A DNA stretch of 64,000 nucleotides from a virus (taxonomy: Duplodnaviria; Heunggongvirae; Uroviricota; Caudoviricetes): the IMG/VR virus record IMGVR_UViG_3300028422_001686; one strand, written 5' to 3'. This document shows positions 11,741 through 30,664 of this stretch, in pieces. Every line of letters begins with the position of its first letter. Positions within the stretch are counted from its first letter, which is position 1. Below the pieces are notes generated by a model. That model was not told the DNA's origin. It did no database searches and worked only from the letters and a program-made list of their open reading frames with translations. Position numbers and translations under genes: made by a program.

Positions 11741-12547
11741 ATGAGAATTTTATGCTTAACTGATACTCATAGAGGGTACTCAAGCAGAACGTCTAGAGTT
11801 CACGATAAGTTCTTTAAACGTATTAGAGATAATGAGCAGTTTGATTTAATTGTTCATTCTGGTGACATTGGAAGCAACTCCCAAAAAAGCACTTATGCTG
11901 GCTTAAAGTCTTTAAGAAGGGCATTTCCTGATCATGTTATTCTAACAGTAAAAGGTAATCATGATTGGTGGGATTGGTATAGTTTTAAGTCTAAAAAGAA
12001 GAACCCTTATAAAACACGATATACTTTTGATTTAATGGAGAGCGAATTCCGGCGTGTTTGTAAAGAAAACAAGATTCACTATTTACAAGATGGGGAATAT
12101 GTCTCAGAAGATGTCGTGATTTTTGGTTTTGATAGTTGGTATGGGCTAGATCCCTATGAATTTACCAATGATTTAAGCTATATGCCAATTGGTATAGAAG
12201 GAAGTACACATCATTTTATGAGACTAAGGTCTGATAGGGCTTTAGCCAAAATTTTTGATTTGACTGAAAAGTATTCTCAATCAAAAGTTTTAGTTACACA
12301 TTTTCCCTCCTATTGTGATGAGGAGAAATACAAGAGACTTCAAGGGCCACAGTATTACCTTGAGCATATACTTGAAGTTTTTGATTATTATATTGTGGGA
12401 CACACTCACAGGTCAGTAGACAGAGTTGAGGGTAAGTGCCGCATTATAAATGCAGGAACTAATAACCCTGAGTTTTGGGACGGCGGCTATGATCGGCCTG
12501 CGTATAAAATTATTGATACAATGGAGGTGGTTAATGGCCATTCTTGA
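11741..12547 (+). CDS. calcineurin-like metallophosphoesterase
   Basis: The four metallophosphatase motifs are present in order: LTDTHRG, HSGDIG, GNHDWW and GHTHR. Confidence 0.7.
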   Translation: MRILCLTDTHRGYSSRTSRVHDKFFKRIRDNEQFDLIVHSGDIGSNSQKSTYAGLKSLRRAFPDHVILTVKGNHDWWDWYSFKSKKKNPYKTRYTFDLMESEFRRVCKENKIHYLQDGEYVSEDVVIFGFDSWYGLDPYEFTNDLSYMPIGIEGSTHHFMRLRSDRALAKIFDLTEKYSQSKVLVTHFPSYCDEEKYKRLQGPQYYLEHILEVFDYYIVGHTHRSVDRVEGKCRIINAGTNNPEFWDGGYDRPAYKIIDTMEVVNGHS

Positions 12548-13691: not shown

Positions 13692-14212
13692 GGGGGTGAA
13701 TTAGTTTCGACACGGTTACGAGGTTTGTATTTGCATGTCCCGGATGGTTCTTGGCCGGGTTATCAATGAACTAAATCATAATTGGCAACGATTATATCGA
13801 ACTTCAAGCTGCTGCTTAATTAGCATTCAGTTGAATGAGGGCCTTACACCAATAACAAAAAGTAAGGGACATACGGACAGGTCTAATAATCGTCTAAAAA
13901 GTTCCCACGGAACGTTGACTCTGTGGCGTTGTTTTCCTTGTGTACAGTAAACAAACAAGGTGGTGGAGGGAACCATGTGTTCCCCTATTGAGTATCTTGT
14001 GACCAGGATATTCAGGTTGTGTGATGAGAGCAACTTTAAAGATTTTGAAACATGAGGCATCTAGTCATCAATTATGTGAAGGAATGGCCCAACCTTGTTA
14101 AAAAATGGTTACTATTTGCTTGGATAGTATTGGCATCAAAAACAAGCTAAACATGTAGACGATATTTATTGAGTAGTTGTGGACGCGGGGGCAGGGCCCG
14201 CCACCTCCACCA
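13692..14212 (+). ncRNA. ssrA: tmRNA (ssrA-like), unusually long at ~520 nt
   Basis: The 5' end GGGGGTGAATTAGTTTCGACACGG matches the tmRNA consensus GGGGNUGAUUCUGGAUUCGACGGG. The 3' end has a T-arm-like stem GCGGG/CCCGC and an acceptor 3' strand CACCTCC followed by A and CCA, which pairs with the 5' GGGGGTG. A tag-like frame at 13784-13818 ends GCT GCT GCT TAA and reads (G)NDYIELQAAA*. The region is GC-richer than its flanks and has no credible ORF. Confidence 0.6.
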
Positions 14213-16004: not shown

Positions 16005-16128
16005 AATAGGTGGGCCGAAGGTTATTGGTTATCATTTTTTTTGGAAATAAAAGCCGAGGTGGTTCGATTCCACCATTAGCCCATTTGGTAAAGGAGGGCG
16101 TTCCCAATACCATATTTGCTCACCTATT
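16005..16128 (+). ncRNA. Y-RNA-like (YrlA-like) small RNA immediately upstream of the Ro60/rsr gene
   Basis: The terminal helix AATAGGTG...TTATTGG (5') pairs with CCAATAC...CACCTATT (3'), with an internal bulge, and is followed by TTTTTT. Inside is a canonical T-arm, GGTGG-TTCGATT-CCACC. There is no ORF. Position and strand match the rsr-yrlA arrangement. Confidence 0.5.
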
Positions 16129-16156: not shown

Positions 16157-16233
16157 CGGCAGGGTCGATAGACTAAGGGTTATCTAGGTTGTGATTTTCC
16201 CCTTAATCATTTCATTTACCCTGCCTTTCTTTT
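16157..16233 (+). ncRNA. second small structured RNA or long-stem terminator upstream of rsr
   Basis: CGGCAGGG and CCCTGCC form a stem enclosing ~55 nt, followed by TTTCTTTTTTTT. The enclosed GGTCGATAGA-N-TAAGGGTTATC motif recurs at 26420. Confidence 0.35.
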
Positions 16234-16271
16234 TTTTAATAATAATATTTTAATACATTATGGAGGACGAC

Positions 16272-17948
16272 ATGTCTTATCGCTATTCTTCTTTAATTAA
16301 AGAAACCCCACAAACTAGTGCAATTCCTGGTAAACAAATGGTTAAGAACAATGCAGGTGGCTTTGTTTTTAAAATTGATAAATGGCAACGTCTTATGCGC
16401 TTCTTAATTCTTGGCGCAGAGAGTGGTACTTATTATGTAAATCAAAAAGCTTTTGCATTAGAAAATATTGATAGAGTCCTTGAGTGTATTAATGAAGATT
16501 CAAGAAAAGTTCTTACTACATTGCTTGATGTCTCTCTCAATGGAAGGGCCTTAAAGCAAGATGCAACAATATTTTTATTGGCTCTTGTTTCAAGTCAAAA
16601 TAAGGGGACTAAAGATGTTGAGCTTAATGAGCTAATTAAGTCGGCTGTTTTAAAAGTTTGTAGAACGCCTACAATGCTTTTTATGTACCTTAAGTTTGTT
16701 AGAGACTTAAGAGGGATGGGTCCTTCTGTAAGAAAATCTATTGCAAAATACTATACTGAAACAGACTTTAGTCGACTTGACCTGAGTGTTATTAAGTACC
16801 GTAATCGTGAAGGCTATACTCATAGAGATGCCTTGCGTTTATCTCATCCAAAGGCTAAAGATGAAAAACGTCAGCAGCTTTTTGCGTATCTTGTAGGAAA
16901 AGCAAATGCTCCTGAAGGTACAATGTGTGAGCTTTTTGAAAAGCTAAAAACAATTGATCTAAATACTAAAAAGGGTGTTAGTGAATTAATTGGCCTAATC
17001 ACTAAACATAATATTCCTCGGGAGCTATTGCCAACTGCAGCATTGAATAATGCAGATGTATGGAGAGCAATGCTTCCAGGAATGCCTATTATGGCATTAG
17101 TCAGAAACTTAGGTAAAATGTCTAGCCTTAATATTTTTGATAGTAATCTAAGAGATGAAACTATCATGGTTGTGAATAAGCTAGGAAATAAAGAGGTTAT
17201 TGAAAAATCCAGAATTCATCCTATGCAGCTTTATATTGCATCTAAGGTATATTCAGCAGGTAGAGGGGTCAAAGGATCTTTATCTTGGAGACCTAATGCT
17301 AAAATTAGATCAGCCCTAGATACTGCAATGACATTGGCTTTTAAAAATATTAAACCAACAGGAAAGAGATTTCTTATTGGTGCTGATATTTCCGGTTCTA
17401 TGACTTGTTCGGTCTTAGGTACTGATTTTGTTTCAGCATATGAAGCTTCAGCTTGTTTAGTTACAACTCTTGTTAGAACTGAAGAAAATGTTGATGCAGT
17501 TGCTTTTGGTAGTCCATCTAAAGGTGGGTATAGATCTTGGAATGAACCAAGAAACTATGGCTTTTCTATAGGGAATAATGGCGTTTCTGTTATGCCTGTA
17601 AACAAGAAAGAATCGGTAGACTCACTTGTTGGTCGTATGCAAAGCAACTACCATATGGGTAGTGGAACTGATTGTTCTCTTCCTATTAGTTATGCCTTAA
17701 ATAAAAAGATACCTGTTGATGTATTTGTCATTACTACTGACAATGAAACATGGGCCGGCAAGGAGCATGTATGTCAGATTTTAGACAAATATAGAAAAAC
17801 AATGGGTATTAATGCAAAATTATTTGTGATGGCAACATCATCTTCAGATTTTACTATTGCTGATCCTAATGATCCTGGAATGCTTGATTGCGCAGGATTT
17901 GATGCTTCAGTATTCAGTCTATTGTCGGAGTTTGCCTTACAAGAATAA
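16272..17948 (+). CDS. rsr: Ro60/Rsr ortholog (TROVE domain plus C-terminal vWA with a MIDAS site)
   Basis: The N-terminal NAGGFVFKIDKWQRLMRFLILGAESGTYYV matches the TROVE signature. A vWA MIDAS motif, FLIGADISGSMT, lies in the C-terminal half. The ATG at 16272 follows the RBS GGAGGA. Confidence 0.75.
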   Translation: MSYRYSSLIKETPQTSAIPGKQMVKNNAGGFVFKIDKWQRLMRFLILGAESGTYYVNQKAFALENIDRVLECINEDSRKVLTTLLDVSLNGRALKQDATIFLLALVSSQNKGTKDVELNELIKSAVLKVCRTPTMLFMYLKFVRDLRGMGPSVRKSIAKYYTETDFSRLDLSVIKYRNREGYTHRDALRLSHPKAKDEKRQQLFAYLVGKANAPEGTMCELFEKLKTIDLNTKKGVSELIGLITKHNIPRELLPTAALNNADVWRAMLPGMPIMALVRNLGKMSSLNIFDSNLRDETIMVVNKLGNKEVIEKSRIHPMQLYIASKVYSAGRGVKGSLSWRPNAKIRSALDTAMTLAFKNIKPTGKRFLIGADISGSMTCSVLGTDFVSAYEASACLVTTLVRTEENVDAVAFGSPSKGGYRSWNEPRNYGFSIGNNGVSVMPVNKKESVDSLVGRMQSNYHMGSGTDCSLPISYALNKKIPVDVFVITTDNETWAGKEHVCQILDKYRKTMGINAKLFVMATSSSDFTIADPNDPGMLDCAGFDASVFSLLSEFALQE

Positions 17949-18443: not shown

Positions 18444-19526
18444 ATGAGAAAATTAGCAAGTATTCAAGAAGTTTTGGCTGTTGAAGATATTGAGGGAGCT
18501 GACAGAATTCAACTTGCTTCTGTTTTAGGATGGAAGTGTATTGTTAAAAAAGGTGAATTTAAAGCTGGAGACTTAGCTGTATATATTGAAATTGATTCTA
18601 TTTTGCCTGAATGGCCAGAATTTGAATTTTTACGTGAAAAGAAATTCAGAATCAAAACATGGAAGTTAAATAAGTTTGGTGTTATTTCTCAAGGTATTTT
18701 ATTTCCTGTAGACATCTTGCCTGCTTATGACTCTAGAAATCCCCCAAAAGAAGATGACGATGTAACTAAGATTCTGGGTGTTACTAAATACGAACAACCT
18801 GATACTGTTATCATTGAACCAAAAAAGCACAAAGGTATTATTAAGTATCTTATGAAGTATAGTCTTTTTAGAAAGATGTATCTGTATTTACATGGAAATC
18901 GTAAAGCAGATTTTCCTTCTTTTATTGAAAAGACAGATGAAACAAGAGTTCAGAGCCTTAAAAAGATTTATAAAGTCTATAAAGAGAAAGGCTACTGGGT
19001 TCCTTCTGAAAAATTAGAAGGGTGTTCTGCTACATATTTTGCCAAGAAAGAAGGTAGAAAGATCATTTTTGGTGTTTGCAGTAGAAATCAATGGCTTAAA
19101 AAGAACGACGGATCCCATTATTGGAGCATCGCTATTAATTATGATCTTGAAAAGAAGCTTAAAGACTCTTTAAAAGAAATGAAAAATGTAGACTTGCTTG
19201 TTGTTCAAGGTGAAATTACTGGCCCAGGAATACAGGGAAATATTTATGGATTAGCTACTCATCAATTTAATATTTTTAATATTGTTATTGATAATAAAAG
19301 AGTTGCACTAAATAAGACATGCGCCTGGAAAGGCATTGATACAGTTCCTATTTTTCCAGCAAGAATTATTCCTGATGAAATTGATCAAATTATTGAATGG
19401 TCTAATGGAAAAAGTGAAATTAATCCTAATGTTATGAGAGAAGGTCTTGTGTTTAGGAACTTTGAAGACCCAAGTCTTTCATTTAAAGTCGTGTCTCCAG
19501 AGTATCTATTGAAAAATGGGAAATAA
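18444..19526 (+). CDS. ATP-dependent RNA ligase (Rnl-type nucleotidyltransferase with an N-terminal OB-like domain)
   Basis: Candidate nucleotidyltransferase motifs occur in the expected order: I (EKLEGCS, Kx[DE]G), Ia (VCSRNQ), III (LLVVQGEITG), IV (EGLVFRNFED) and V (SFKVVSPEYLLK). The N-terminal ~60-aa segment MRKLASIQEV...ADRIQL resembles the Rnl5/DraRnl N-domain. Confidence 0.5.
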   Translation: MRKLASIQEVLAVEDIEGADRIQLASVLGWKCIVKKGEFKAGDLAVYIEIDSILPEWPEFEFLREKKFRIKTWKLNKFGVISQGILFPVDILPAYDSRNPPKEDDDVTKILGVTKYEQPDTVIIEPKKHKGIIKYLMKYSLFRKMYLYLHGNRKADFPSFIEKTDETRVQSLKKIYKVYKEKGYWVPSEKLEGCSATYFAKKEGRKIIFGVCSRNQWLKKNDGSHYWSIAINYDLEKKLKDSLKEMKNVDLLVVQGEITGPGIQGNIYGLATHQFNIFNIVIDNKRVALNKTCAWKGIDTVPIFPARIIPDEIDQIIEWSNGKSEINPNVMREGLVFRNFEDPSLSFKVVSPEYLLKNGK

Positions 19527-20593: not shown

Positions 20594-20839
20594 ATGAATA
20601 AAGCAAAAGTTATTATTTATGATGCAGATAATAAAGAGGTTATGTCTTTAATATGTACTGATGTACGGTATACAATTGTTAATGACTTAAAAACACTTCC
20701 TGTTTTAAAGAATAAAATTGGAATGAAAAGCCCCCTGTATTCAACAGGAGCATTTATAGACTTTAATGGATATATTCCTAGAGATAAAGAGTCTATAAAC
20801 AAAGATGTTGATCAAATTTTAAAGGAAAGTTATGAGTGA
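20594..20839 (+). CDS. hypothetical protein
   Basis: RBS AGAGAGG upstream of an 81-aa ORF. Confidence 0.4.
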   Translation: MNKAKVIIYDADNKEVMSLICTDVRYTIVNDLKTLPVLKNKIGMKSPLYSTGAFIDFNGYIPRDKESINKDVDQILKESYE

Positions 20840-21434
20840 TGACAATAAGGTTTTAGTTATTGTTGATATGCAATATGATTTTATTAACAAAGATGGAGCT
20901 CTTTATGTTGGAGAAAAAGCTGAAAGCATTATTGAGAACATAGTAGCTTTTAAAAAACTTTTTAAAAAAGTTGTATTTACTCGAGACATTCATCCTTGCT
21001 TGAATGGAACAGATACTCAAGATGAGATAAATGAGTTTACTCAGTTTGGTAAGCATTGTCATGATGTGAAGACAAGTGCAATTGATTCTCGATTGATAGA
21101 TCAAAATGATTTCACTGGGAAAGAAGAGGTTATTTTTAAAAGCTCATTTGCAACATCTATGGCTGAAAGATTTTTTACTAGAGTAGATCCTCGAAAAGCC
21201 GAGTTTCATGTGACAGGTGTCTGTACCCATATTTGTGTTCATGATGTGATTGCTGAAATTGTCAATTACTCTAAAAACATATATAACAGATTACCTAAAA
21301 TCTATTTATATAAAAATATGATTGGTGACTTTGATGCTGAAATGGAAGCATTTGCAATTAAACGTCTCCAAAAATTATATGGAGTTCAAATGGTTGAATT
21401 TGCTCATGTAGGAACTATGGGGATAGAAAAATGA
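20832..21434 (+). CDS. pncA: nicotinamidase / isochorismatase-family cysteine hydrolase
   Basis: VLVIVDMQYDF is the N-terminal nicotinamidase motif. A catalytic Cys lies in VTGVCTHICVHD. Confidence 0.7.
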   Translation: MSDDNKVLVIVDMQYDFINKDGALYVGEKAESIIENIVAFKKLFKKVVFTRDIHPCLNGTDTQDEINEFTQFGKHCHDVKTSAIDSRLIDQNDFTGKEEVIFKSSFATSMAERFFTRVDPRKAEFHVTGVCTHICVHDVIAEIVNYSKNIYNRLPKIYLYKNMIGDFDAEMEAFAIKRLQKLYGVQMVEFAHVGTMGIEK

Positions 21435-23650: not shown

Positions 23651-23805
23651 TATGGGTTTCTTAAAAGACAATTACCATAAAATTGCTATAGGTTTTGCTT
23701 TAATGGTAGCCCTTTATTCTGGGGCCTTAATTTATTCTGCGTATAAATTCGGCTCTTTTATGGAAGGGCTGAATTCTTATTACATGAAGCATTCAGAGGT
23801 TGTTA

Positions 23806-24948
23806 ATGAAAAATTATATGATTGAACCAATTATAACAAGCTTATTAGATAATGATCTTTATAAGTTTACTATGCAGTACGCAAGTAGACATATAGGGCA
23901 TGCTTATATGCCACGTAGAGGCATTGTAAAGTATAAGCTGTACAATAGAAGCAAAAACAGTCTTTTAGGAATAAAAGATTTGCTGGAAGCTCAGATTGAT
24001 ATGTTATGTCAATTGAGATTTACAAATGAAGAGATTAACTATCTTCGTACATTAAATCTTTTTGATGAGGACTATCTGTGCAAGCTCAAAAATTTTACTT
24101 TTTTTCGTGAAAACATTATAGTTGATACACGTGAAGGTGACCTTGCTCTTGAGATAAAAGGTGCATGGTATAGTACAATTCTTTTAGAAGTACCATTACT
24201 GGCAATTATTAGTGAACTTGTTTCTCATAAAAGTTACGCTTCAAATCCAACCCCACAAATGGGTGCATTTGATGGAAGTTATTCTATTTATGATTTTGGA
24301 ACAAGAAGACGACATAGTTTTGCTCATCAAAAAGAAGTTTTAACTGGACTTAAAGGAATGCCAGCATTTAAGGGCACTTCTAACGTCTATTTTGCACGAT
24401 TGTTAAACCTTCCAGTGTTTGGATCTATGGCACATGAATGGATGCAATATCATCAAATTTTTGGTATAGAGCAATTCCAAGAATTTGCGCTTAACGGTTG
24501 GTCTGACACTTTTAAAGGAAAATGTGGGATAGCTTTAACTGACACTATTAACATGGATTCTTTTTTAAAAGAGTTTGATGGAAAACTAGCTCGTATTTAT
24601 GATGGCTGTCGCCATGATTCAGGCGATCCTTTTATTTGGGGAGAAAAACTACTGTCTCACTATATGGAATTAGGTATTGATCCAAGATTTAAAACGTTAG
24701 TTTTTTCTGATGGTTTAGACTTTAATACCATAAAGGATATTCAAGAAGCTTTTGCTCATAGAGTAAGAGTCTCATTTGGAATTGGAACTAAGCTAATGAA
24801 TAGATCCATTGACCCTCCATCGATTGTAATTAAAATGGTTTCTGCAGAAGGACAGCCTGTGGCGAAGATTTCTGATGAACCATTTAAGACAGTTTGTGAA
24901 GACTTGAATTACTTAAAAGAAGTAAAAGAAAGACTAAATGTTATTTAA
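23806..24948 (+). CDS. pncB: nicotinate phosphoribosyltransferase
   Basis: The N-terminus MIEPIITSLLDNDLYKFTMQ matches the NAPRTase signature (LLDTDLYKLTM). Length is ~380 aa. The ATG at 23806 follows GAGG. Confidence 0.7.
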   Translation: MKNYMIEPIITSLLDNDLYKFTMQYASRHIGHAYMPRRGIVKYKLYNRSKNSLLGIKDLLEAQIDMLCQLRFTNEEINYLRTLNLFDEDYLCKLKNFTFFRENIIVDTREGDLALEIKGAWYSTILLEVPLLAIISELVSHKSYASNPTPQMGAFDGSYSIYDFGTRRRHSFAHQKEVLTGLKGMPAFKGTSNVYFARLLNLPVFGSMAHEWMQYHQIFGIEQFQEFALNGWSDTFKGKCGIALTDTINMDSFLKEFDGKLARIYDGCRHDSGDPFIWGEKLLSHYMELGIDPRFKTLVFSDGLDFNTIKDIQEAFAHRVRVSFGIGTKLMNRSIDPPSIVIKMVSAEGQPVAKISDEPFKTVCEDLNYLKEVKERLNVI

Positions 24949-25164
24949 GGAGATAGTTAGGTGAATACATTTTAAGCAAAAAAGTATTTGACAATAATAT
25001 CTTATGTATTTTATAATACGTGTATGAATATGAATACAAAACCATCCATTAATAATTATTGGAATACTGACTCAGAGGAGACAGTATAGGGTTTAGTTTT
25101 ATATTATATTCATAAATAAAGCTAAAACCCTAACCTTAAAACAGTTAGGGTTTTTTGTTTTTGC

Positions 25165-25241
25165 GGGGGTGTAGTTAAGTTGGTTATAACGCTACCCTGT
25201 CACGGTAGAGGCCACGGGTTCGAGCCCCGTTACTCCCGCCA
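25165..25241 (+). tRNA. tRNA-Asp (GTC)
   Basis: Acceptor GGGGGTG pairs with TACTCCC. D-arm GTTA...TAAC. Anticodon stem CTACC with loop CTGTCAC. T-arm ACGGG-TTCGAGC-CCCGT. The 3' end is GCCA. Confidence 0.75.
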
Positions 25242-25254
25242 TATTTTTAATAGT

Positions 25255-25331
25255 GTCCTCTTAGCTCAGTTGGTGGTAGCAGCTGACTGTTAATCAGCAG
25301 GCCTTTGGTTCAAATCCAAAAGGGGACGCCA
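25255..25331 (+). tRNA. tRNA-Asn (GTT)
   Basis: Acceptor GTCCTCT pairs with AGGGGAC. Anticodon stem GCTGA with loop CTGTTAA. T-arm TTTGG-TTCAAAT-CCAAA. The 3' end is GCCA. Confidence 0.75.
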
Positions 25332-25335
25332 TTTT

Positions 25336-25421
25336 GCGTAGGTGGCCGAGTGGTTAAAGGCAGCAGACTGTAAATCTGCCCTCTTCGGAGTACGGTGGTT
25401 CAAATCCACCCCTGCGCACCA
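25336..25421 (+). tRNA. tRNA-Tyr (GTA), with long variable arm
   Basis: Acceptor GCGTAGG pairs with CCTGCGC. D-arm GCCGAGTGGTTAAAGGC. Anticodon stem GCAGA with loop CTGTAAA. T-arm GGTGG-TTCAAAT-CCACC. The 3' end is ACCA. Confidence 0.75.
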
Positions 25422-25424
25422 TTT

Positions 25425-25550
25425 AAAGTTGTTATAGGTGAGAACGGACAAAGCCAAGCAACCCGCACCTGAGAAAAGAATGCAACGGCTAGGGAGCCAT
25501 CCTGAAGGCACGGATCATCCGTGAAAAGCTGACAGCCAGGAAAGTACTGG
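25425..25550 (+). ncRNA. candidate structured small RNA between tRNA-Tyr and tRNA-Glu
   Basis: ~130 nt with no ORF. It contains the hairpins AGGTG...CACCT, GGCTAGGGAGCC and CACGGATCATCCGTG. Confidence 0.3.
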
Positions 25551-25556
25551 CAATAT

Positions 25557-25634
25557 GCACCCATCGTCTAATCAGGTTCAGGACACTACCTTTTCACGGT
25601 AGGTATCCGGGTTCAAATCCCGGTGGGTGTACCA
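25557..25634 (+). tRNA. tRNA-Glu (TTC)
   Basis: The sequence aligns arm-for-arm with E. coli tRNA-Glu. Acceptor GCACCCA pairs with TGGGTGT. Anticodon stem CTACC with loop TTTTCAC. T-arm CCGGG-TTCAAAT-CCCGG. The 3' end is ACCA. Confidence 0.75.
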
Positions 25635-25655
25635 TTTTAAATAGAAGATTAGTAT

Positions 25656-25731
25656 CTCCGTATAGCGCAGCTGGTAGCGCACAATTTTTGGGAAGTTGGG
25701 GTCGTAGGTTCAAATCCTACTACGGAGACCA
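25656..25731 (+). tRNA. tRNA-Pro (TGG)
   Basis: Acceptor CTCCGTA pairs with TACGGAG. D-arm GCGC-AGCTGGTA-GCGC. Anticodon stem CAATT with loop TTTGGGA. T-arm GTAGG-TTCAAAT-CCTAC. The 3' end is ACCA. Confidence 0.7.
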
Positions 25732-25740
25732 AATAAAAAA

Positions 25741-25817
25741 GGTAGCTTAACTCAGTTGGTTAGAGTGCTAACCTGATAAGTTAGAAGTCCCAAGTTCAAA
25801 TCTTGGAGTTACCACCA
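25741..25817 (+). tRNA. tRNA-Ile (GAT)
   Basis: Acceptor GGTAGCT pairs with AGTTACC. D-arm ACTC-AGTTGGTTA-GAGT. Anticodon stem CTAAC with loop CTGATAA. T-arm CCAAG-TTCAAAT-CTTGG. The 3' end is ACCA. Confidence 0.75.
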
Positions 25818-25838
25818 TAAATTTTGTAAACAAGTTTT

Positions 25839-25914
25839 GCCTTTACTTGGTAGAGTGACTCAACGGAGCACTGATAAAGCTCAGAGGTTAGGTTAAAATC
25901 CTACAGTAGAGGCA
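25839..25914 (+). tRNA. degenerate tRNA-like element (possible pseudo-tRNA, anticodon-loop-like CTGATAA)
   Basis: Acceptor-like GCCTTTA pairs with TAGAGGC. An anticodon-like hairpin GAGC-(A)CTGATAA-(A)GCTC is present. The T-arm is weak (TAGG-TTAAAAT-CCTA) and there is no regular D-arm or encoded CCA. Confidence 0.3.
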
Positions 25915-26318
25915 ATTTAAGGGTTTCCCTTGCTCAGGAAGCGCGCGAAAACGCACTTAAATAATGAGCTAAAATATAGTGTCACCTACAACGAACTAGA
26001 TAGCGCTAGTCGTGCTTAGTGGTGAGGTTGATAGGCTGCTATCTTCTAATAGATAAAAAGGAGAAAAAATGATAATTATTCATTTTTTAGGGATAATGTG
26101 CATTCTTGTTCTTGTATCTATTTTAATTATGTCATTAGTTGATTTTATAAGGAGGCTTGTATTTGCGGACTATACCAAAAAGAAAACTCCTGTTATTGGT
26201 CGTTCATTTGATCAATTAAAAATTCTGAAAGATCTTGAAGAAACTTATAATAATCATAACCCTAAAACTTGTAGGGTTGATTGTTGTATATTATGTTATT
26301 CAGAGAGAAATGAAAAAA

Positions 26319-26393
26319 GGGCATCTAGCATAACTGGTAGTGCAGCGGAGTCCAAATCCGCGTGTTTGGGTTCAAGTCCTGGGGTGCCCGCCA
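26319..26393 (+). tRNA. tRNA-Trp (CCA)
   Basis: Acceptor GGGCATC pairs with GGTGCCC. D-arm GCAT-AACTGGTA-GTGC. Anticodon stem GCGGA/TCCGC with loop GTCCAAA. T-loop TTCAAGT on a weak, GU-rich T-stem. The 3' end is GCCA. Its layout aligns with E. coli tRNA-Trp. Confidence 0.6.
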
Positions 26394-26412
26394 TTTAAAA
26401 AATAATTAAAAT

Positions 26413-26556
26413 TTATAGTAGGTCGATAGAGATAGGTTATCGCATTTTAAGCCGTAGGTTATAGGTTCAAATCCTATCCTTGCAGCCATTTTATTGCAAG
26501 GTAGCTCAATTGGCAGAGCAACGTAAACGTCTATTTCAACTTTTTTACTTACTATT
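26413..26556 (+). ncRNA. circularly permuted tRNA-like RNA, YrlA-like (copy A)
   Basis: The order along the strand is a T-arm ATAGG-TTCAAAT-CCTAT, then the acceptor 3' strand CCTTGCA, then G-CCA, then the linker TTTTAT. After that come the complementary acceptor 5' strand TGCAAGG and a canonical D-arm GCTC-AATTGGCA-GAGC. The outer helix ATAGTAG...CTTACTAT is followed by TTTTTT. Confidence 0.45.
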
Positions 26557-26573
26557 TTTTATAAGAGGTTTTT

Positions 26574-26849
26574 ATGTCTGAAGTCAGAGTATTATTAGCT
26601 GATGTAAAGATTAAGCATAATTATGAATGCGGGAATTGTGGTGCTTTAAGAGAGGGAAGCAGTAGCTATACTACAACTATAATTGCGTCAGATACTACTG
26701 AGCTGAAAGAGGTAATGGACTCAATTTTGCCACACCCAAATAATATGCCCATAGGCTGGGCTTCTTTCTTTTCTCCAAAAGGAACTATATATTTGTGTTC
26801 AGAATGTAAAGATGAGGGCTATAAAGATGGCAAAGAAAAAAACACCTAA
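26574..26849 (+). CDS. small Zn-ribbon protein
   Basis: CGNCGAL...CSECKDEG motif. RBS AAGAGG. Confidence 0.45.
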   Translation: MSEVRVLLADVKIKHNYECGNCGALREGSSSYTTTIIASDTTELKEVMDSILPHPNNMPIGWASFFSPKGTIYLCSECKDEGYKDGKEKNT

Positions 26850-27093
26850 AAAGTCAGAGGGTACTCGAAGAGGTAAGATGTTAATTTCATCTGAGCTTTT
26901 ATCTCAATTTATTTTTGGTAGATCTTTGCAGCATATTGAAATAGTTAAAGATAATGATACTGATTTGTTTACTATTTTCATGAAAGACCCAAGCCTTGAT
27001 ATTGTGCCAGAAGGAGTTTGTACTCCTAGATACATACTTGATGAAGATAAAGATTTAACTAGAATTATAGGAGAATACCATGGGACTATTTGA
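26827..27093 (+). CDS. hypothetical protein with a basic N-terminus
   Basis: ATG at 26827 (MAKKKTPKK). Confidence 0.4.
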   Translation: MAKKKTPKKSEGTRRGKMLISSELLSQFIFGRSLQHIEIVKDNDTDLFTIFMKDPSLDIVPEGVCTPRYILDEDKDLTRIIGEYHGTI

Positions 27094-27694
27094 TTTAGTA
27101 GCACATAAGCCCGATAAGGATCTAAGGATCTTAAGTAAAAGGGTTAGTGATATTAGACATGATGCTGAGACATTAAGAAATGCGCTAGTATCTATAACTG
27201 ATGTAAACTCTTCTTTAGTACATGTCGTTGAAAAGATTGAGGGAGCTCAATTCACTACGCAGAAAGAAAAAATCAGTAAATTAAAAGTTGATGATGACTA
27301 CAAAAAAGAACTGATTGAGTCAATTGATAACTGTAAAAAAATGGCCCTAGATACGCTTAAGCCATTAATGGAGCATTCTTCTAAATTAGAAGGAAATATG
27401 GTTGCTGCAGAGATTAAGGGTAAGACAATGCTCGTTATCTTAGAGGCTCAAAAGAAAGTAGTTGAGTCTGGTCATATGCAACTTAAGCTTATTAAGCAAA
27501 TTGAGGCTGAAGGAAATAAAAATTCTGCTAAGATTAAAGAGTTAGTTTCTGAAGCAGAAAAAATCAACAATATCACTAGAAATGCTGTTGAGACTTTTAG
27601 TACAAGTGGAGCGGAAATTGATAGTGTTATCAATACTTTTGGTGAAAAGAATGGTTCTATTTCAGATATGTTAAAAAGTAACTGGATGAATTAA
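27080..27694 (+). CDS. hypothetical coiled-coil protein
   Basis: 204-aa ORF. Confidence 0.5.
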   Translation: MGLFDLVAHKPDKDLRILSKRVSDIRHDAETLRNALVSITDVNSSLVHVVEKIEGAQFTTQKEKISKLKVDDDYKKELIESIDNCKKMALDTLKPLMEHSSKLEGNMVAAEIKGKTMLVILEAQKKVVESGHMQLKLIKQIEAEGNKNSAKIKELVSEAEKINNITRNAVETFSTSGAEIDSVINTFGEKNGSISDMLKSNWMN

Positions 27695-27695
27695 A

Positions 27696-28256
27696 ATGAG
27701 CTTGCCATATACTGAGAAAAATTTTAAGCTGTATCAATCTTTTTGTTCTCACTTAACAAAGAACGATATATTTGGCCATTATGCTTCAACTGCCGTTGAA
27801 ACATTTATCTTTCAGGCTATTTTTGATAGATGTAAGCATGCTAGATTTAGATTTGGTGAATGCAATGAGCATTCTTTCAATAAAGAGTATTGTGAATGTC
27901 CGAGTAACTGGTGTCCATTAAAATCAAGTGTTAGCGAAAGAAAGAGATCTATTTCTTCTAATTTTTGGAGAAATAAATATCTCGAAATGGTAAATTTCTT
28001 AAAATGTAATGAGCTTCCTCTACGAAAAGCTTTTACTTTGGCAGACATTAACTATATATTGGAAGTTTTCTATCAGAGGGCCTTAAAAGAAAGAGAAGAG
28101 ATAAAGAAAAATAAAAGCCATGTTTCTAGCTTTTGTAAATTCGAGCCGATCTATAAGAAGATCGAAACTAAATTTATTTTAAAAGAAAATATGTGGCAAA
28201 AATTTAAGTCAGGTAACATGAAGGAGGATTTATGTTCTATTGTATCGGACTTTTAA
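27696..28256 (+). CDS. hypothetical Cys-rich protein
   Basis: 186-aa ORF. Confidence 0.5.
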   Translation: MSLPYTEKNFKLYQSFCSHLTKNDIFGHYASTAVETFIFQAIFDRCKHARFRFGECNEHSFNKEYCECPSNWCPLKSSVSERKRSISSNFWRNKYLEMVNFLKCNELPLRKAFTLADINYILEVFYQRALKEREEIKKNKSHVSSFCKFEPIYKKIETKFILKENMWQKFKSGNMKEDLCSIVSDF

Positions 28257-28473
28257 CTGTAGGATCTATTTGTTATTTTGGATATCAAGGCTGGAAAGCT
28301 ATCAAAAATAATGATTCCTATGAAAAGAGTTTTAAAGTTTTTAGCAAACCTTTTGTCCTTACGATTAATGAAGAAGGCGTAGGTATCACTAGAGACGAAA
28401 AGTAGTTAGTTATGGCTAGCATCTTTTGGGAGAAGCTTGTGTTTCAATAAGTAATTTTACTTAGGAGAAACAC

Positions 28474-29046
28474 ATGTATGACATTAATTTTAAAAGAAAA
28501 ATTCTTTCACAATTAGATAGTGAATTTAATTCTATCCCTCAAGAAGAGTATGAGTCTTATAGTTTGTTCTATAATAGCTGGGTAGTTAAAGTAAGAGTTA
28601 GTAATAAAGGATGGGATTTTTTACATAGAGCTTATTATTTATGTAAAAATGTTTATGAAATTATAGATATTCCATTTATTGATTTTGCTAATCACTTTAT
28701 ATATCGAAGAGGCTGGAGAAATAGCCTTATCCCCTATTCATGGACACACAAAAGAACATGGTGTCGTTTTGGTCGTGAGCGACATAAGTATCAAAAAAAA
28801 TCACACCATAAAAAGAAAGTTCTTACTGAGCATGAAAAAGCAAAGAAAGAATGGAGAGTAAAAACAAAGGATCCTAGAGATCAAGGTGAAAGATACTCTA
28901 ACAACAGTATGTATACATATGCTCGTCGTCGGGCTAATAGAGATGTAAGAAGAAAGGTTAAGCAATTGATTTATCATTGTGGTGACTGGGACGCTTATGT
29001 CCATCCTGACAAGAATGAGTTTCTTGACCCATGGGATTATAGTTAA
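28474..29046 (+). CDS. hypothetical basic protein
   Basis: RBS AGGAGAAA. The C-terminal half is Lys/Arg-rich. Confidence 0.5.
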   Translation: MYDINFKRKILSQLDSEFNSIPQEEYESYSLFYNSWVVKVRVSNKGWDFLHRAYYLCKNVYEIIDIPFIDFANHFIYRRGWRNSLIPYSWTHKRTWCRFGRERHKYQKKSHHKKKVLTEHEKAKKEWRVKTKDPRDQGERYSNNSMYTYARRRANRDVRRKVKQLIYHCGDWDAYVHPDKNEFLDPWDYS

Positions 29047-29471
29047 AAGTTTTAATAGGTCGACAAATAATGGTTATCAATGATGTTGTAGTAGTGTTTT
29101 TTTAATTTTTCGCTAGTTGTTTTCCTATTTCTCTTGAGGCATAATTAATTGCTTTTGAAGAGGGAAGTAGATTGGTTTTAAAAAATTAACCGTAGAGGGT
29201 ACTTCTCGTGGTGTCAGCCACGTAAATAATATGACAGAGTGAACTGTAAACTCCACCTCCACTAGAAGGTGTGCACTAGTGGAAAACAAGGGAGTAACGC
29301 GTAAGATCTTATGATACGAGAAGCGGCCGATTTGTGGATTTTTATTCCATTATTTAACTATTTACCTATTTTTTAGGCTAAAACACAATGCGGATTAACC
29401 TTAAGGTCGTGTGACGGATCGACTATAAAAATAACGCTACCAGTGTGTGGATACTGAGGCATGTGTTTTCA

Positions 29472-29501
29472 GGGCTCACTATTTTAGTGGGCCCTTTTTA
29501 T
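29472..29501 (+). terminator. intrinsic terminator closing the 29050-29500 non-coding region
   Basis: GGGCTCACT-ATTTT-AGTGGGCCC followed by TTTTTATTTTT. Confidence 0.6.
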
Positions 29502-29520
29502 TTTTAAGGATGTATTTTTT

Positions 29521-29778
29521 ATGAGTATAACATTGATAAAAAAAGAGAAGGTTATTAAGGAAGTAAAATACCTTAATGTATGTGCTAAATGTTCAGATTG
29601 TTTTTCTGGTGATCTGTTAGATTCACAAGGCAATATCGTCCATGACTATGATGGATATGTTCCATCTGGGCTAGGTATTGGTCGTGGAGACTATGTAGAA
29701 TTTAAGGTTGACTTAGAAACTGGTCAGATCTTAAATTGGAAAAAACCAGAAGACATTATTATTGAAGATAATGATTAG
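29521..29778 (+). CDS. hypothetical protein
   Basis: 85-aa ORF. Confidence 0.45.
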   Translation: MSITLIKKEKVIKEVKYLNVCAKCSDCFSGDLLDSQGNIVHDYDGYVPSGLGIGRGDYVEFKVDLETGQILNWKKPEDIIIEDND

Positions 29779-29780
29779 TA

Positions 29781-29925
29781 AATAGTGTATGCCGAAAGAA
29801 TTTGATTACCATATCAAGGAGTAGGTCGTAGGTTCGAGTCCTGCTCTCCTCCCCATTTTATGGAGGAGATAGCTCAGTGGGTAGAGCAACTAAAGCTCAA
29901 ATTCACCCTTTTGCTTACACTATTT
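29781..29925 (+). ncRNA. circularly permuted tRNA-like RNA, YrlA-like (copy B)
   Basis: The outer helix AATAGTGTATGC pairs with GCTTACACTATT and is followed by TTTTATTTT. Inside are a T-arm GTAGG-TTCGAGT-CCTGC, the acceptor 3' strand TCTCCTC, C-CCA and the linker TTTTATG. These are followed by the complementary acceptor 5' strand GAGGAGA and the D-arm GCTC-AGTGGGTA-GAGC. Confidence 0.45.
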
Positions 29926-30037
29926 TTATTTTAAATATTCTTTAGCTAGGTCGAATGACATTCCGTTATCATTTGTTTTGGGTATAAATAGACCGGAGTC
30001 AATTTTATTACTTAGCTTTATATTAAAAGGAGGGAAG

Positions 30038-30664
30038 ATGAAAGAACGAATCTTTCTTGCACTTGCTATCTTTTTAACTATTTTTATTATCGGTAACGCT
30101 GAAGCCACTTCTCCTAAAGATGTAGATAAATGGTGTAAGTATTATCAATATGATAATTGTGAGTTAGTTCATGCAATTATAAAAAGTGAATCAGGATATA
30201 ATCCAACATCTTTTGTTGATGAAAAATCAGGAAGTTATGGGTTAATGATGGTTCAGTGTGATACCGCTAAGGATCCTCGTCTTGAAGCCCCACTTAAATA
30301 TGGCTGTGATCAACTGTTTAATCCTCAGCTAAATGTAAGATATGGAATTATGTATCTTAAGATGATTCAGAAACTACTTATAATAGCTGATTCTGAAGAA
30401 GAGTTTATTAAAGACTTAATTGCTGTATACAATGCAGGGTTTGATAAGACTAAAATAAGCAAAGAAATAACTGTTGCTGGAGACATTATTGTCGCTACTG
30501 GATATAAACCACGTAAATGTAAACACTATAATAAGTTTAGATATGATGGTTTTCCTCCACAAGAATGCTATCCCGGTGAATACATTAATGAAGAACATGT
30601 TTGGAAAGTTTATAGACGATACAAGTTTTTAAAGGAGAAGTCTAATGAAATGGTTAAAAAGTGA
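30038..30664 (+). CDS. lytic transglycosylase (SLT domain), secreted
   Basis: Signal peptide. The catalytic-region signature ESGYNPTS...GSYGLMMVQ matches the SLT pattern E-S-x-x-N-P ... G-x-x-G-L-M-Q. RBS AAGGAGGG. Confidence 0.65.
   Translation: MKERIFLALAIFLTIFIIGNAEATSPKDVDKWCKYYQYDNCELVHAIIKSESGYNPTSFVDEKSGSYGLMMVQCDTAKDPRLEAPLKYGCDQLFNPQLNVRYGIMYLKMIQKLLIIADSEEEFIKDLIAVYNAGFDKTKISKEITVAGDIIVATGYKPRKCKHYNKFRYDGFPPQECYPGEYINEEHVWKVYRRYKFLKEKSNEMVKK

What the first reader, a model, noticed from the sequence alone, without database searches (positions are those of the whole stretch)
26413..26556. Circularly permuted tRNA-like gene, copy A (3' half, then CCA-TTTTAT linker, then 5' half)
The sequence reads in order: a T-arm (ATAGG-TTCAAAT-CCTAT), the acceptor 3' strand CCTTGCA, G-CCA, TTTTAT, then the exactly complementary acceptor 5' strand TGCAAGG, then a textbook D-arm (GCTC-AATTGGCA-GAGC). 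No anticodon arm is present. The unit is bounded by an outer helix (ATAGTAG...CTTACTAT) and a U-tract. This is a tRNA whose acceptor stem is capped by a loop and whose ends sit where the anticodon stem would be. That is the topology reported for the tRNA-like domain of YrlA RNAs, and the Rsr gene lies elsewhere in this window. It is not a normal tRNA and not a pseudogene fragment, because both halves are intact and complementary.
Basis: partly seen in the sequence, partly recalled or inferred. Interest (0 to 1): 0.7.

Follow-up and report, generated by a model that had tools for sequence, protein, structure and literature searches.

The report
Phage Y RNA mimicking permuted tRNA
This is a gene for a small non-coding "Y RNA" of the known YrlA type, with a protein-binding stem and a tRNA look-alike whose halves are in swapped order; it sits in an uncharacterised phage that also encodes the Ro60-like protein such RNAs bind, so it is a correct catch but a new member of a known family.

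Summary
Window 26415-26555 (+) reads: outer helix, T-arm, acceptor 3' strand, G-CCA-UUUUAU, complementary acceptor 5' strand, canonical D-arm, outer helix, U-tract. There is no anticodon arm.

The interpretation (YrlA-type Y RNA) is supported.
- The outer helix carries the Ro-binding signature: 9 bp, a bulged C, G.U/A-U, and GUCGAUAG, close to GNCGAAN0-1G.
- The phage encodes Rsr/Ro60 at 16260-17948.
- A covariance model built only from 23 Rsr-adjacent elements of other contigs scores copy A at 82.9 bits (E 2e-18) and copy B (29782-29923) at 88.1 bits. YrlAs of cultured Ro-encoding actinophages score 74-96 bits.
- Rfam's own YrlA model gives 35 bits, below its cut-off of 69. Rsr-adjacent phage elements also fall below it (43-45 bits).
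- The tRNA tertiary pair 15-48 covaries perfectly across the family.

I found three more Y-RNA-like elements: two directly upstream of rsr and one after copy B.

The acceptor cap looks like the 3' end of this phage's own tRNA genes (NCCA plus a U-rich trailer) on a 7-8 bp stem. This predicts RNase P cleavage into a two-piece, CCA-ended RNA, as shown for M. smegmatis YrlA.

Verdict: new member of a known kind, of moderate interest.

The parts
26415..26555 (+). Copy A, whole YrlA-type Y RNA gene (141 nt), followed by U-tract 26556-26560
   Evidence: Sequence. Rfam YrlA 35.3 bits. Leave-out model R1 82.9 bits, E 2.4e-18. Fold z -2.7.
26415..26426 (+). P1 5' strand (Ro60-binding helix): AUAGUAGGU, bulged C26424, then GA. 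The motif GUCGAUAG lies at 26422-26429.
   Evidence: Pairs with 26545-26555 in the MFE. P1 covaries in the family alignment: 8 of 8 pairs change on both sides. Motif regex.
26429..26436 (+). P2 5' strand GAGAUAGG; pairs with UCUAUUUC at 26530-26537
   Evidence: Copy B has GAAUUUGA/UCAAAUUC at the same place, with 2 compensatory pairs.
26435..26441 (+). GGUUAUC motif, equal to the conserved CGGUUAYC of Rsr-adjacent YrlAs
   Evidence: Alignments A3 and A4
26456..26477 (+). Variable-loop equivalent AGGUU (26456-60) and T-arm AUAGG-UUCAAAU-CCUAU (26461-77)
   Evidence: U48 pairs with A15 (Levitt pair); across the family 27 of 27 sequences keep this pair.
26478..26488 (+). Acceptor 3' strand CCUUGCA, discriminator G26485, CCA 26486-88
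   Evidence: All 8 tRNA genes of the window likewise encode NCCA.
26489..26494 (+). Linker UUUUAU capping the acceptor stem. Predicted to be removed after RNase P cleavage 5' of U26495 and 3' trimming to CCA.
   Evidence: Identical 9-nt CCAUUUUAU in copy B although the stems differ. The processing is inferred from M. smegmatis YrlA (PMC4201824).
26495..26520 (+). Acceptor 5' strand UGCAAGG, U8-A9, D-arm GCUC-AAUUGGCA-GAGC (26504-19), A26
26545..26560 (+). P1 3' strand UU + ACUUACUAU (to 26555), then U-tract
29782..29923 (+). Copy B, second full YrlA-type gene. Perfect GNCGAAN1G (GCCGAAAG 29791-98), bulged C29793, T-arm 29828-44, UCUCCUC-C-CCA-UUUUAU-G-GAGGAGA at 29845-69, D-arm 29872-87, U-tract 29924-27.
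   Evidence: R1 88.1 bits, E 1.4e-19.
16006..16127 (+). Element C, a Y RNA directly upstream of rsr. P1 AUAGGUGGGC(C)GAA / GCUCACCUAU, GGUUAUC, T-arm 16058-74 and a D-arm-like hairpin, but no acceptor stem.
   Evidence: R1 38.3 bits, E 1e-7. Weak Rfam Y_RNA hit of 21.9 bits.
16158..16225 (+). Element D, a minimal stem-loop Y RNA upstream of rsr. Its 5' module GGUCGAUAGA..GGGUUAUC is nearly identical to that of copy A.
   Evidence: z -3.5. R1 16.9 bits, E 0.016.
29944..30017 (+). Element E, a candidate minimal Y RNA 16 nt after copy B. AGCUAGGU(C)GAAUG ... ACUUAGCU; GUCGAAUG is a perfect GNCGAAN1G.
   Evidence: z only -2.0. R1 11.5 bits, E 0.3. Weakest of the five.
16260..17948 (+). rsr: Ro60 orthologue, the presumed protein partner. 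The likely true start is ATG 16272, behind a GGAGG.
   Evidence: Pfam TROVE 1e-38 and vWA_Ro60 1e-47. PDB Ro60 9nen 1e-97, 1yvp, and D. radiodurans Rsr 2nvo 6e-86.
18444..19526 (+). RNA ligase (context: Rsr / Y RNA / RNA-ligase association)
   Evidence: Pfam PHA02142 OB-fold + RNA_ligase. PHROG 968 RNA ligase, 2e-69.
24988..26393 (+). Perfect sigma-70 promoter (TTGACA-18-TATAAT, 24988-25017) and a cluster of 7 tRNA genes. It ends with tRNA-Trp 26319-26393, 21 nt before copy A, so this is the probable transcription unit.

Best explanation
Copy A (26415-26555) is a gene for a YrlA-type Y RNA of about 141 nt. It is one of five Y-RNA-like genes in an uncharacterised AT-rich phage.

Architecture. 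The 5' and 3' ends pair into a helix with a bulged C followed by G.U and A-U pairs. This is the binding site for the ring-shaped Ro60/Rsr protein, which the phage encodes 8.5 kb upstream. A second helix (P2) then leads into a module that folds like the top half and elbow of a tRNA (acceptor stem, T-arm, D-arm, variable loop, all tertiary-contact nucleotides). The module is in permuted order and has no anticodon arm.

Function, by analogy with characterised systems (inferred). The RNA tethers or gates Rsr and presents a tRNA-shaped surface to a partner. In D. radiodurans and S. Typhimurium that partner is PNPase. The complex acts in structured-RNA decay or quality control, or shields against tRNA-targeting nucleases, alongside the phage's RNA ligase, tRNAs and tmRNA.

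Processing (inferred). The acceptor stem is 7-8 bp, and its cap is a tRNA-style 3' end (discriminator, CCA, U-rich trailer) of the kind that follows this phage's tRNA genes. I therefore predict that RNase P cuts 5' of the acceptor 5' strand and that exonucleases trim back to CCA. This would leave a two-piece RNA (about 74 + 61 nt) held together by its helices, as shown experimentally for M. smegmatis YrlA.

What is shown and what is inferred. Shown: sequence anatomy, family membership by covariance model, covariation, and the presence of rsr. Inferred: Rsr binding, the effector, and processing.
For: - Anatomy read directly from the sequence.
- Rfam YrlA RF02553 is the best non-tRNA family for both copies: 35.3 and 36.4 bits, window-wide E 5e-4 and 3e-4.
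- Model R1, built only from 23 Rsr-adjacent elements of other contigs, scores copy A at 82.9 bits (E 2e-18) and copy B at 88.1 bits. tRNA dimers in the same window reach at most 26.6 bits. YrlAs of cultured Ro-encoding phages Big4, Sixama and Phredrick, also untrained, score 74-96 bits.
- RNAalifold on 28 sequences predicted P1, the T-arm, the acceptor and the D-arm on its own. The outer helix P1, which my detector did not select for, is 85% paired, and all 8 of its pairs change on both sides. The covariation score is 0.75 against 0.23 in shuffles and at most 0.19 with slid partners.
- The Levitt pair 15-48 is G-C in 20 sequences and A-U in 7, with no exception. Copy A is A-U and copy B is G-C.
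- Ro-site signature: the regex GNCGA[AU]N?G...RRUUAYC hits 4 times in the window, against 0.2 in shuffles (0 of 200 shuffles reach 4). All four hits are intergenic and on the + strand, and two lie in the 260-nt gap upstream of rsr. Element D next to rsr shares copy A's 5' module almost verbatim.
- Rsr is intact.
- NCCA plus a T/A-rich trailer follows all 8 tRNA genes.
- The 9-nt CCAUUUUAU is identical in A and B, although 5 of 7 acceptor pairs differ.
- Literature: the YrlA definition, its presence in phages, and RNase P cleavage plus a CCA end for M. smegmatis YrlA with a 7-bp stem (PMC4201824); tRNA-like crystal structure and 'circularly permuted tRNA' wording (10.1101/312249); the Rsr / Y RNA / RNA ligase operon and the decoy idea (PMC7790460).
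Against: - The Rfam gathering score (69 bits) is not reached. Rsr-adjacent phage elements also miss it: L239 44.9, L242 42.8 and 44.6; L153 (Rsr adjacency unknown) scores 59.8.
- Copy A's motif is GUCGAUAG, one position off GNCGAAN0-1G.
- Copy A lies 8.5 kb from rsr rather than next to it.
- For copy B the tRNA-like fold is 13.6 kcal/mol above the MFE.
- In alignment A3 the T-arm, acceptor and D-arm were required by my detector, so their pairing percentages are partly by construction.
- There are no expression, binding or processing data.
- The -1:73 positions can pair (U.G in A, G-C in B). This could shift or weaken RNase P cleavage.
Confidence: 0.85

Rival explanations
1. A tRNA-shaped RNA that works independently of Rsr. 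It could be an RNase P 'punctuation' site that processes the polycistronic tRNA/mRNA transcript. Or it could be a decoy for host tRNA-targeting nucleases or tRNA-binding defence proteins, with the outer helix merely structural.
For: - Copy A lies 21 nt after tRNA-Trp and 14 nt before the ribosome-binding site of the next ORF. Copy B lies 4 nt after a stop codon.
- Other phage tRNA clusters carry permuted tRNA-like elements without a Ro-binding module (L213, L026, L163, L129). Model R1 matches only their core, positions 49-105.
- The decoy idea has been raised for YrlA (PMC7790460).
Against: - The outer helix has the Ro-site features: bulged C, GNCGA(A/U)NG and GGUUAUC. These are shared with the elements next to rsr in this window and in about 25 other loci.
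- R1 aligns full-length over positions 1-144, not only over the core.
- rsr is present.
- The two roles do not exclude each other.
Confidence: 0.08
2. A non-functional remnant of two adjacent tRNA genes: the 3' half of one, the spacer, and the 5' half of the next. Alternatively, a chance tRNA-dimer-like false positive.
For: - The cap NCCA-UUUUAU looks like a tRNA 3' end plus an inter-tRNA spacer.
- Chen et al. warn that dimeric tRNAs can score as false YrlAs.
- Real tRNA dimers in the window score up to 26.6 bits with R1.
Against: - The two acceptor strands are perfectly complementary to each other in both copies, although their sequences differ. Five of 7 pairs are compensatory.
- The flanks form P1 and P2 rather than anticodon arms.
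- The scores of 83-88 bits are far above the dimer scores.
- The Levitt pair and all tertiary nucleotides are intact.
- A tandem-tRNA origin is plausible as evolutionary history, but not as the present state.
Confidence: 0.03
3. A true circularly permuted tRNA gene of the Cyanidioschyzon type, or a split tRNA, matured into a decoding tRNA by excision, ligation and acceptor opening. The phage RNA ligase might do the ligation.
For: - The gene order (3' half, linker, 5' half) and the encoded CCA are the same.
- An RNA ligase gene lies next to rsr.
- Wang et al. raise the possibility that some YrlAs are processed further.
Against: - There is no anticodon stem-loop. Only 3 bp (CGU/ACG) lie where the anticodon stem would start, and they are followed by P2 and P1.
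- I recognised no bulge-helix-bulge (BHB) motif in the folds, though I ran no dedicated search for one.
- ARAGORN finds a tRNA only when a foreign anticodon arm is grafted in.
Confidence: 0.02
4. A two-piece (permuted) tmRNA-like gene.
For: Permuted ssrA genes also read T-arm, acceptor 3' strand, CCA, intervening segment, acceptor 5' strand. The phage does use trans-translation RNA: a tmRNA lies at 13692-14212.
Against: - No Rfam tmRNA or tmRNA_permuted hit lies at 26400-26560 or 29780-29930.
- There is no tag reading frame and no pseudoknots.
- The D-arm is canonical, unlike that of tmRNA.
- There is no G3:U70. Positions 3:70 are C-G in copy A and G-C in copy B.
- The RNA is only 141 nt.
Confidence: 0.01

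Closest known systems
YrlA RNAs (Rfam RF02553; S. Typhimurium YrlA, Chen et al. 2014, PMC4201824; structure in Wang et al. 2018)
   Same: - Two-module plan: a terminal Ro60-binding helix with the GNCGAAN0-1G region, and a tRNA-like module in the order T-arm, capped acceptor stem, D-arm.
- Conserved U8, A14, G18G19, G46, the 15-48 pair, G53-C61 and the UUCRA T-loop.
- Encoded in a genome that has rsr and an RNA ligase.
   Different: - AT-rich sequence, scoring only 35 bits on the Rfam model.
- About 17 nt (GGUUAUC...) lie between P2 and the 3-bp anticodon-stem stub, instead of 3 nt.
- A 7-8 bp acceptor stem instead of 6 bp.
- The cap encodes NCCA plus a U-rich trailer instead of a plain loop.
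- Located 8.5 kb from rsr, at the end of a tRNA cluster.
M. smegmatis YrlA (Chen et al. 2014)
   Same: [quoted passage not shown] It is experimentally cleaved by RNase P and ends in CCA, and both halves stay with Rsr. This is the processing I predict here.
   Different: There only one C is templated, and CA is added after nibbling. Here the full discriminator plus CCA is genome-encoded, as in the phage's own tRNA genes. Processing here is not shown.
YrlA-like elements of Ro-encoding actinophages (Gordonia phage Sixama, Streptomyces phage Phredrick, Microbacterium phage Big4) and of Rsr loci in metagenomes
   Same: - They score the same with model R1: 74-96 bits, against 83-88 here.
- Several Y-RNA-like elements per phage, interleaved with tRNA genes 1-3 kb from the Ro gene.
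   Different: - Those are GC-rich, and most have 5-6 bp acceptor stems capped by tetraloops.
- An NCCA cap appears in only 2 of about 11 distinct Rsr-adjacent elements with stems of 7 bp or more (L239, which is the same contig as L284, and L275).
Metazoan Y RNAs / nematode sbRNAs (RF00019)
   Same: The Ro-binding helix has a bulged C followed by G.U and A-U, and a GGUUAUC-type motif. The 5' end of element C, GGGCCGAAGGUUAUUGGUUAUC, resembles hY1 GGUCCGAAGGUAGUGAGUUAUC (the hY1 sequence is quoted from memory).
   Different: Metazoan Y RNAs have no tRNA-like module. Copy A gives no RF00019 hit.
Circularly permuted tRNA genes (Cyanidioschyzon merolae, Soma et al. 2007) and two-piece tmRNA genes
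   Same: The gene order is 3' half, CCA, linker, 5' half, and the acceptor stem is initially closed by a loop.
   Different: Those carry an anticodon arm or a tag ORF plus pseudoknots and mature into translation-active RNAs. This element has neither.

Membership tests
YrlA-type bacterial/phage Y RNA | The 5' and 3' ends pair into a Ro60-binding helix with a bulged nucleotide | tested here: met
   AUAGUAGGU / ACUUACUAU (9 bp), bulged C26424, then G.U and A-U. The helix covaries across the family: 8 of 8 pairs change on both sides. The pair before the bulge is U-A in copy A, as in 7 other members, against C-G in 13.
YrlA-type bacterial/phage Y RNA | Literal GNCGAAN0-1G motif in the 5' strand (Chen et al. 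2014) | tested here: inconclusive
   Copy A has GUCGAUAG, with U instead of A at position 6. Copy B (GCCGAAAG) and elements C and E match exactly. The same GUCGAU variant occurs next to rsr in element D and in L273, L257 and L242a. It therefore lies within the family's natural variation.
YrlA-type bacterial/phage Y RNA | tRNA-like module in the order T-arm, acceptor-like stem-loop, D-arm, with conserved D/T nucleotides and no anticodon loop | tested here: met
   Levitt pair A15-U48, G18G19, G53-C61 and U54U55C56 are present. The 15-48 covariation holds in 27 of 27 sequences.
YrlA-type bacterial/phage Y RNA | Score at or above the Rfam RF02553 gathering threshold (69 bits) | tested here: not met
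   35.3 bits. The threshold is also missed by elements that abut rsr in other phages: L239 44.9, L242 42.8 and 44.6. A leave-out model of 23 Rsr-adjacent elements gives 82.9 bits, E 2e-18. The failure therefore reflects the composition of the Rfam seed rather than non-membership.
YrlA-type bacterial/phage Y RNA | Encoded in a genome with an rsr/Ro60 gene, typically near it | tested here: met
   rsr lies at 16260-17948. Copy A is 8.5 kb downstream on the same strand. Two further Y-RNA-like elements lie within 260 nt upstream of rsr.
YrlA-type bacterial/phage Y RNA | Physical binding to Rsr; modification by TruB/DusA | not testable with these tools
   Needs RIP, EMSA and modification mapping.
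RNase P-processed, CCA-ended YrlA (M. smegmatis type) | Seven-bp acceptor stem; RNase P cleavage; 3' CCA | tested here: inconclusive
   The 7-bp stem (8 bp with U-1.G73) and the encoded G73-CCA are present. Cleavage itself cannot be tested here.
Circularly permuted tRNA gene (decoding tRNA after processing) | Complete anticodon stem-loop, reconstituted from the termini | tested here: not met
   Only a 3-bp stub (26453-55 / 26521-23) precedes P2 and P1. ARAGORN finds no tRNA unless a foreign anticodon arm is added.
Two-piece tmRNA | Tag reading frame, pseudoknots, G3:U70, degenerate D-loop | tested here: not met
   No tmRNA or tmRNA_permuted hit lies at the locus. Positions 3:70 are C-G. The D-arm is canonical.

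The most novel reading that the evidence does not exclude
The genome-encoded discriminator-CCA-trailer on a 7-8 bp acceptor stem means these phage YrlAs mature into two-piece tRNA mimics with a free CCA end, and these are actually aminoacylated. Copy B, like L239 and L213b (with NCCA caps) and L153 (whose cap holds only CA after C73), carries G-1:C73. That pair is the main bacterial HisRS identity element, and the window holds no tRNA-His. The CCA end would then couple Rsr to a synthetase, EF-Tu or the ribosome. That would make it a charged Y RNA rather than a passive tRNA-shaped tether.
Probability: 0.1. Interest if true: 0.7.

Novelty: new member of a known kind. Interest (0 to 1): 0.35.

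Why it matters
- It extends YrlA-type Y RNAs and Rsr to a phage lineage far from the actinophages where they were catalogued. The genome is about 33% GC. It has no DNA match among 50,697 phage records, and the best Rsr identity found is 41%.
- One phage can carry a graded set of five Y RNAs: full tRNA mimic, acceptor-less, and minimal.
- The fully encoded NCCA-plus-trailer cap, conserved between two otherwise diverged copies, argues that the RNase P-cleaved, CCA-ended form seen once in M. smegmatis is a selected state rather than a curiosity. It also offers a clean system to test this.
- Practically, Rfam's YrlA threshold misses these genes, and phage annotations can mislabel them as short tRNAs.

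Tried and rejected
- Megablast of 25000-30500 against phages gave no match. An exact-protein look-up of Rsr found nothing on record. The genome could therefore not be identified.
- The IMG/VR scans GGTTCRARTCC-N-CCATTTTAT and CCATTTTAT-N7-8-TAGCTCA mostly returned ordinary or tandem tRNAs. After filtering, only L129, L153 and L177 share the cap. These were ascertained by the pattern, so they cannot be used as statistics.
- Scanning GCCGAAG-N-GGTTATC in IMG/VR gave 122 hits, almost all chance matches; only 1 was a plausible element. This was useless for an unbiased census of caps.
- Rsr-based locus searches in viral and metagenome contigs found no close relative of this phage (identity at most 41%). 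Synteny-based conservation of copy A could not be tested. These loci did, however, supply the unbiased training set.
- A relaxed 'helix + bulged C' search was too noisy.
- Pfam and PHROGs gave nothing for the ORFs flanking copies A and B, apart from an SLT lysozyme domain at 29978-30664.
- The readings as permuted decoding tRNA, tmRNA-like gene and tRNA-dimer remnant were considered and rejected (see rivals).

Full report
**Observation**

The sequence at 26413-26556 is exactly as described. The parts are:
- T-arm ATAGG-TTCAAAT-CCTAT, 26461-77
- Acceptor 3' strand CCTTGCA, 26478-84
- G26485, CCA 26486-88, TTTTAT 26489-94
- Perfectly complementary TGCAAGG, 26495-501
- TA, then D-arm GCTC-AATTGGCA-GAGC, 26504-19
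- An outer helix, ATAGTAGGT (26415-23) with ACTTACTAT (26547-55), followed by a T-run

ARAGORN and the Rfam tRNA model report eight ordinary tRNAs in the window but nothing here. When the two halves are re-permuted around a donor anticodon arm, ARAGORN calls a canonical 76-nt tRNA. In native order it calls none. The MFE fold of 26415-26560 contains the outer helix, T-arm, acceptor and D-arm (z = -2.7).

**A second copy**

A second copy lies at 29782-29923. Between the copies:
- Five of 7 acceptor pairs are changed on both sides.
- P2 is GAGAUAGG/UCUAUUUC in one and GAAUUUGA/UCAAAUUC in the other, with two compensatory pairs.
- The T-stem and the 3-bp anticodon-stem stub have one compensatory pair each.
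- The 9-nt cap CCAUUUUAU is identical in both.

**What it is**

Rfam's YrlA model (RF02553) is the best non-tRNA match for both copies. It gives 35.3 and 36.4 bits, with whole-window E-values of 5e-4 and 3e-4, below the gathering score of 69.

The window encodes an intact Ro60/Rsr at 16260-17948. Pfam gives TROVE 1e-38 and vWA_Ro60 1e-47. PDB matches are Ro60 9nen at 1e-97 and D. radiodurans Rsr 2nvo at 6e-86. An RNA ligase follows at 18444-19526.

The outer helix is more than a boundary. It consists of 9 bp, a bulged C (26424), then G.U and A-U. Its 5' strand reads GUCGAUAG, one position off the GNCGAAN0-1G motif that defines bacterial Y RNAs (PMC4201824). Copy B has a perfect GCCGAAAG with a bulged C at 29793. 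After P2, both copies carry GGUUAUC or GAUUACC.

**Comparison with Rsr-adjacent elements elsewhere**

Searches with the Rsr protein gave 100 loci from viral and metagenome contigs. None is closer than 41% identity. A topology detector found about 25 distinct elements within roughly 1 kb of rsr. They show the same plan and the same GGGCCGRAG...CGGUUAYC motifs.

MAFFT aligned the window copies with these motif for motif. RNAalifold then predicted P1, the T-arm, the acceptor and the D-arm on its own.

On that structure 94% of cells pair. The covariation score is 0.75, against 0.23 in shuffles (0 of 500 reach it) and at most 0.19 for slid partners. The three tRNA helices were required by my detector, so the informative part is P1, which was not required. 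P1 is 85% paired, and all eight of its pairs change on both sides.

The tertiary Levitt pair 15-48 was also not imposed. It is G-C in 20 sequences and A-U in 7, with no exception. Copy A is A-U and copy B is G-C.

**Membership test**

As an explicit test I built a covariance model (R1) from 23 Rsr-adjacent elements only, leaving out the window. With filters off it gives:
- Copy B: 88.1 bits (E 1.4e-19)
- Copy A: 82.9 bits (E 2.4e-18)
- tRNA dimers in the window: at most 26.6 bits

Untrained YrlA-like elements of the cultured Ro-encoding phages Big4, Sixama and Phredrick score 74-96 bits. Elements that abut rsr in other phages also miss the Rfam threshold (L239 44.9, L242 42.8 and 44.6; L153, whose Rsr adjacency is unknown, scores 59.8). 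The Rfam failure therefore reflects the seed, not the element.

**More Y RNAs in the window**

The Ro-site regex hits four times, against 0.2 expected (0 of 200 shuffles reach 4). All four hits are intergenic and on the + strand. They are at 16014, 16164, 26422 and 29791.
- Element C (16006-16127) has a 10-bp P1 with a bulged C, GGUUAUC, a T-arm and a D-arm-like hairpin, but no acceptor stem. R1 gives 38.3 bits, and there is a weak hit to metazoan Y_RNA.
- Element D (16158-16225) is a minimal stem-loop. Its 5' module, GGUCGAUAGA..GGGUUAUC, is almost the same as that of copy A. This ties copy A to the rsr locus internally.
- Element E (29944-30017) is a weaker candidate. It follows copy B, in the manner of a yrlA/yrlB pair.

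**Mechanism**

Shown:
- The anatomy
- Membership in the family
- Covariation
- The presence of rsr

Inferred from characterised systems:
- The RNA binds Rsr through P1.
- It presents a tRNA-shaped module to a partner, which is PNPase in D. radiodurans and S. Typhimurium.
- It thereby contributes to structured-RNA decay or quality control, or acts as a nuclease-resistant tRNA decoy.

The genomic company fits an RNA-maintenance role. It comprises a tRNA cluster behind a perfect sigma-70 promoter at 24988-25017, a tmRNA, an RNA ligase and a metallophosphoesterase.

The cap deserves its own reading. All eight tRNA genes of the window encode NCCA followed by a T/A-rich trailer, and the YrlA cap looks the same. 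In the unbiased Rsr-locus sample most caps are tetraloops on 5-6 bp stems. NCCA occurs in only 2 of about 11 distinct elements with stems of 7 bp or more.

M. smegmatis YrlA has a 7-bp stem. It is cleaved by RNase P and ends in CCA in vivo, and both halves stay bound to Rsr. I therefore predict RNase P cleavage at 26494/26495 and trimming to A26488, which would give halves of about 74 nt and 61 nt. I put this step at about 0.5. The pairable -1:73 positions (U.G in copy A, G-C in copy B) could shift or dampen cleavage.

**Rivals**

- *Permuted decoding tRNA.* Excluded by the lack of an anticodon arm: only a 3-bp stub is present.
- *tmRNA-like gene.* Excluded because there is no model hit, tag, pseudoknot or G3:U70.
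- *Dead tRNA-dimer remnant.* Excluded by the compensatory changes and by the P1/P2 helices.
- *Rsr-independent tRNA-shaped processing signal or decoy.* This stays possible at a low level. Other phage tRNA clusters hold permuted tRNA-likes without a Ro module. Here, however, the Ro module is present and R1 aligns over its full length.

**Novelty and score**

YrlAs, their presence in phages, their resemblance to circularly permuted tRNAs, and RNase P/CCA processing of one member are all published. This is a new member of the family in a very distant AT-rich phage. Its notable variant features are a fully encoded NCCA-plus-trailer cap, five Y-RNA genes of graded complexity, and placement at the end of a tRNA cluster 8.5 kb from rsr. 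I score the interest at 0.35.

Noticed in passing
window 16006-16127 and 16158-16225: Two further Y-RNA-like genes lie in the 260-nt gap directly upstream of rsr. Element C has a T-arm and a D-arm-like hairpin but no acceptor stem. Element D is a minimal stem-loop. Both have P1 with a bulged C, the GNCGA(A/U)NG motif, GGUUAUC and a U-tract.
   Followed up: yes
window 29944-30017: A candidate fifth, minimal Y RNA lies 16 nt after copy B. It has a perfect GUCGAAUG, an 8-bp P1 and a bulged C. The fold statistics are weak (z -2.0) and R1 gives only 11.5 bits.
   Followed up: partly
window 13692-14212: Phage-encoded tmRNA. Rfam gives 94 bits, but the gene is 521 nt long with an insertion of about 260 nt relative to the model. 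ARAGORN does not report it.
   Followed up: no
window 25841-25912: A degenerate tRNA-like sequence (Rfam tRNA 32.8 bits, missed by ARAGORN). It has a GAU anticodon, an aberrant D-arm and a T-loop UUAAAAU, and sits right after a normal tRNA-Ile(GAU). The 155 nt that follow (25913-26068) are unassigned.
   Followed up: no
window 26069-26398: An ORF with a good ribosome-binding site (AGGAG) and a hydrophobic N-terminus reads straight through tRNA-Trp (26319-26393). It stops just after the CCA.
   Followed up: no
window 29852/29862; L239 (T-arm from 11766, +), L213 (about 11151-11360, -), L153 (368-528, -): Copy B and several NCCA-capped relatives have G-1 paired with C73, giving an 8-bp acceptor. 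This is the hallmark of bacterial tRNA-His. The window has no tRNA-His gene among its 8 tRNAs.
   Followed up: partly
L213 (12506-12715 and 11151-11360, - strand), L026, L163, L170, L206: Other phage tRNA clusters carry permuted tRNA-like elements (T-arm, capped acceptor, D-arm). Their 5' flank has a recurrent ACAGCAA motif instead of the Ro-binding motif. For L213, L026 and L163, R1 matches only the tRNA-like core; for L170 and L206 it matches a partial stretch (model positions 26-125), still without the terminal helix. They may form a separate, undescribed class. L213 also holds a ROOL RNA (300 bits) in the same cluster.
   Followed up: partly
L335 (Gordonia phage Sixama), L336 (Streptomyces phage Phredrick), L337 (Microbacterium phage Big4): Cultured Ro-encoding actinophages hold 3-6 Y-RNA-like elements interleaved with tRNA genes, and none is annotated. 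In Big4 the annotated 68-nt 'tRNA-Ser(cga)' (L337 1098-1165) overlaps a 95.8-bit YrlA (1090-1243), so it is probably a misannotation.
   Followed up: partly
window 16260-16274: The rsr ORF as listed starts at ATG 16260. A GGAGG at 16263-67 precedes ATG 16272, which is the more likely start.
   Followed up: no
window 11741-12547, 18444-19526, 20832-21434, 23800-24948: The context genes are a calcineurin-like phosphoesterase, an RNA ligase with an N-terminal OB domain, an isochorismatase/nicotinamidase-like protein and NAPRTase (NAD salvage). Together with the tRNAs, the tmRNA and Rsr, they suggest an RNA-repair and anti-defence gene neighbourhood.
   Followed up: partly
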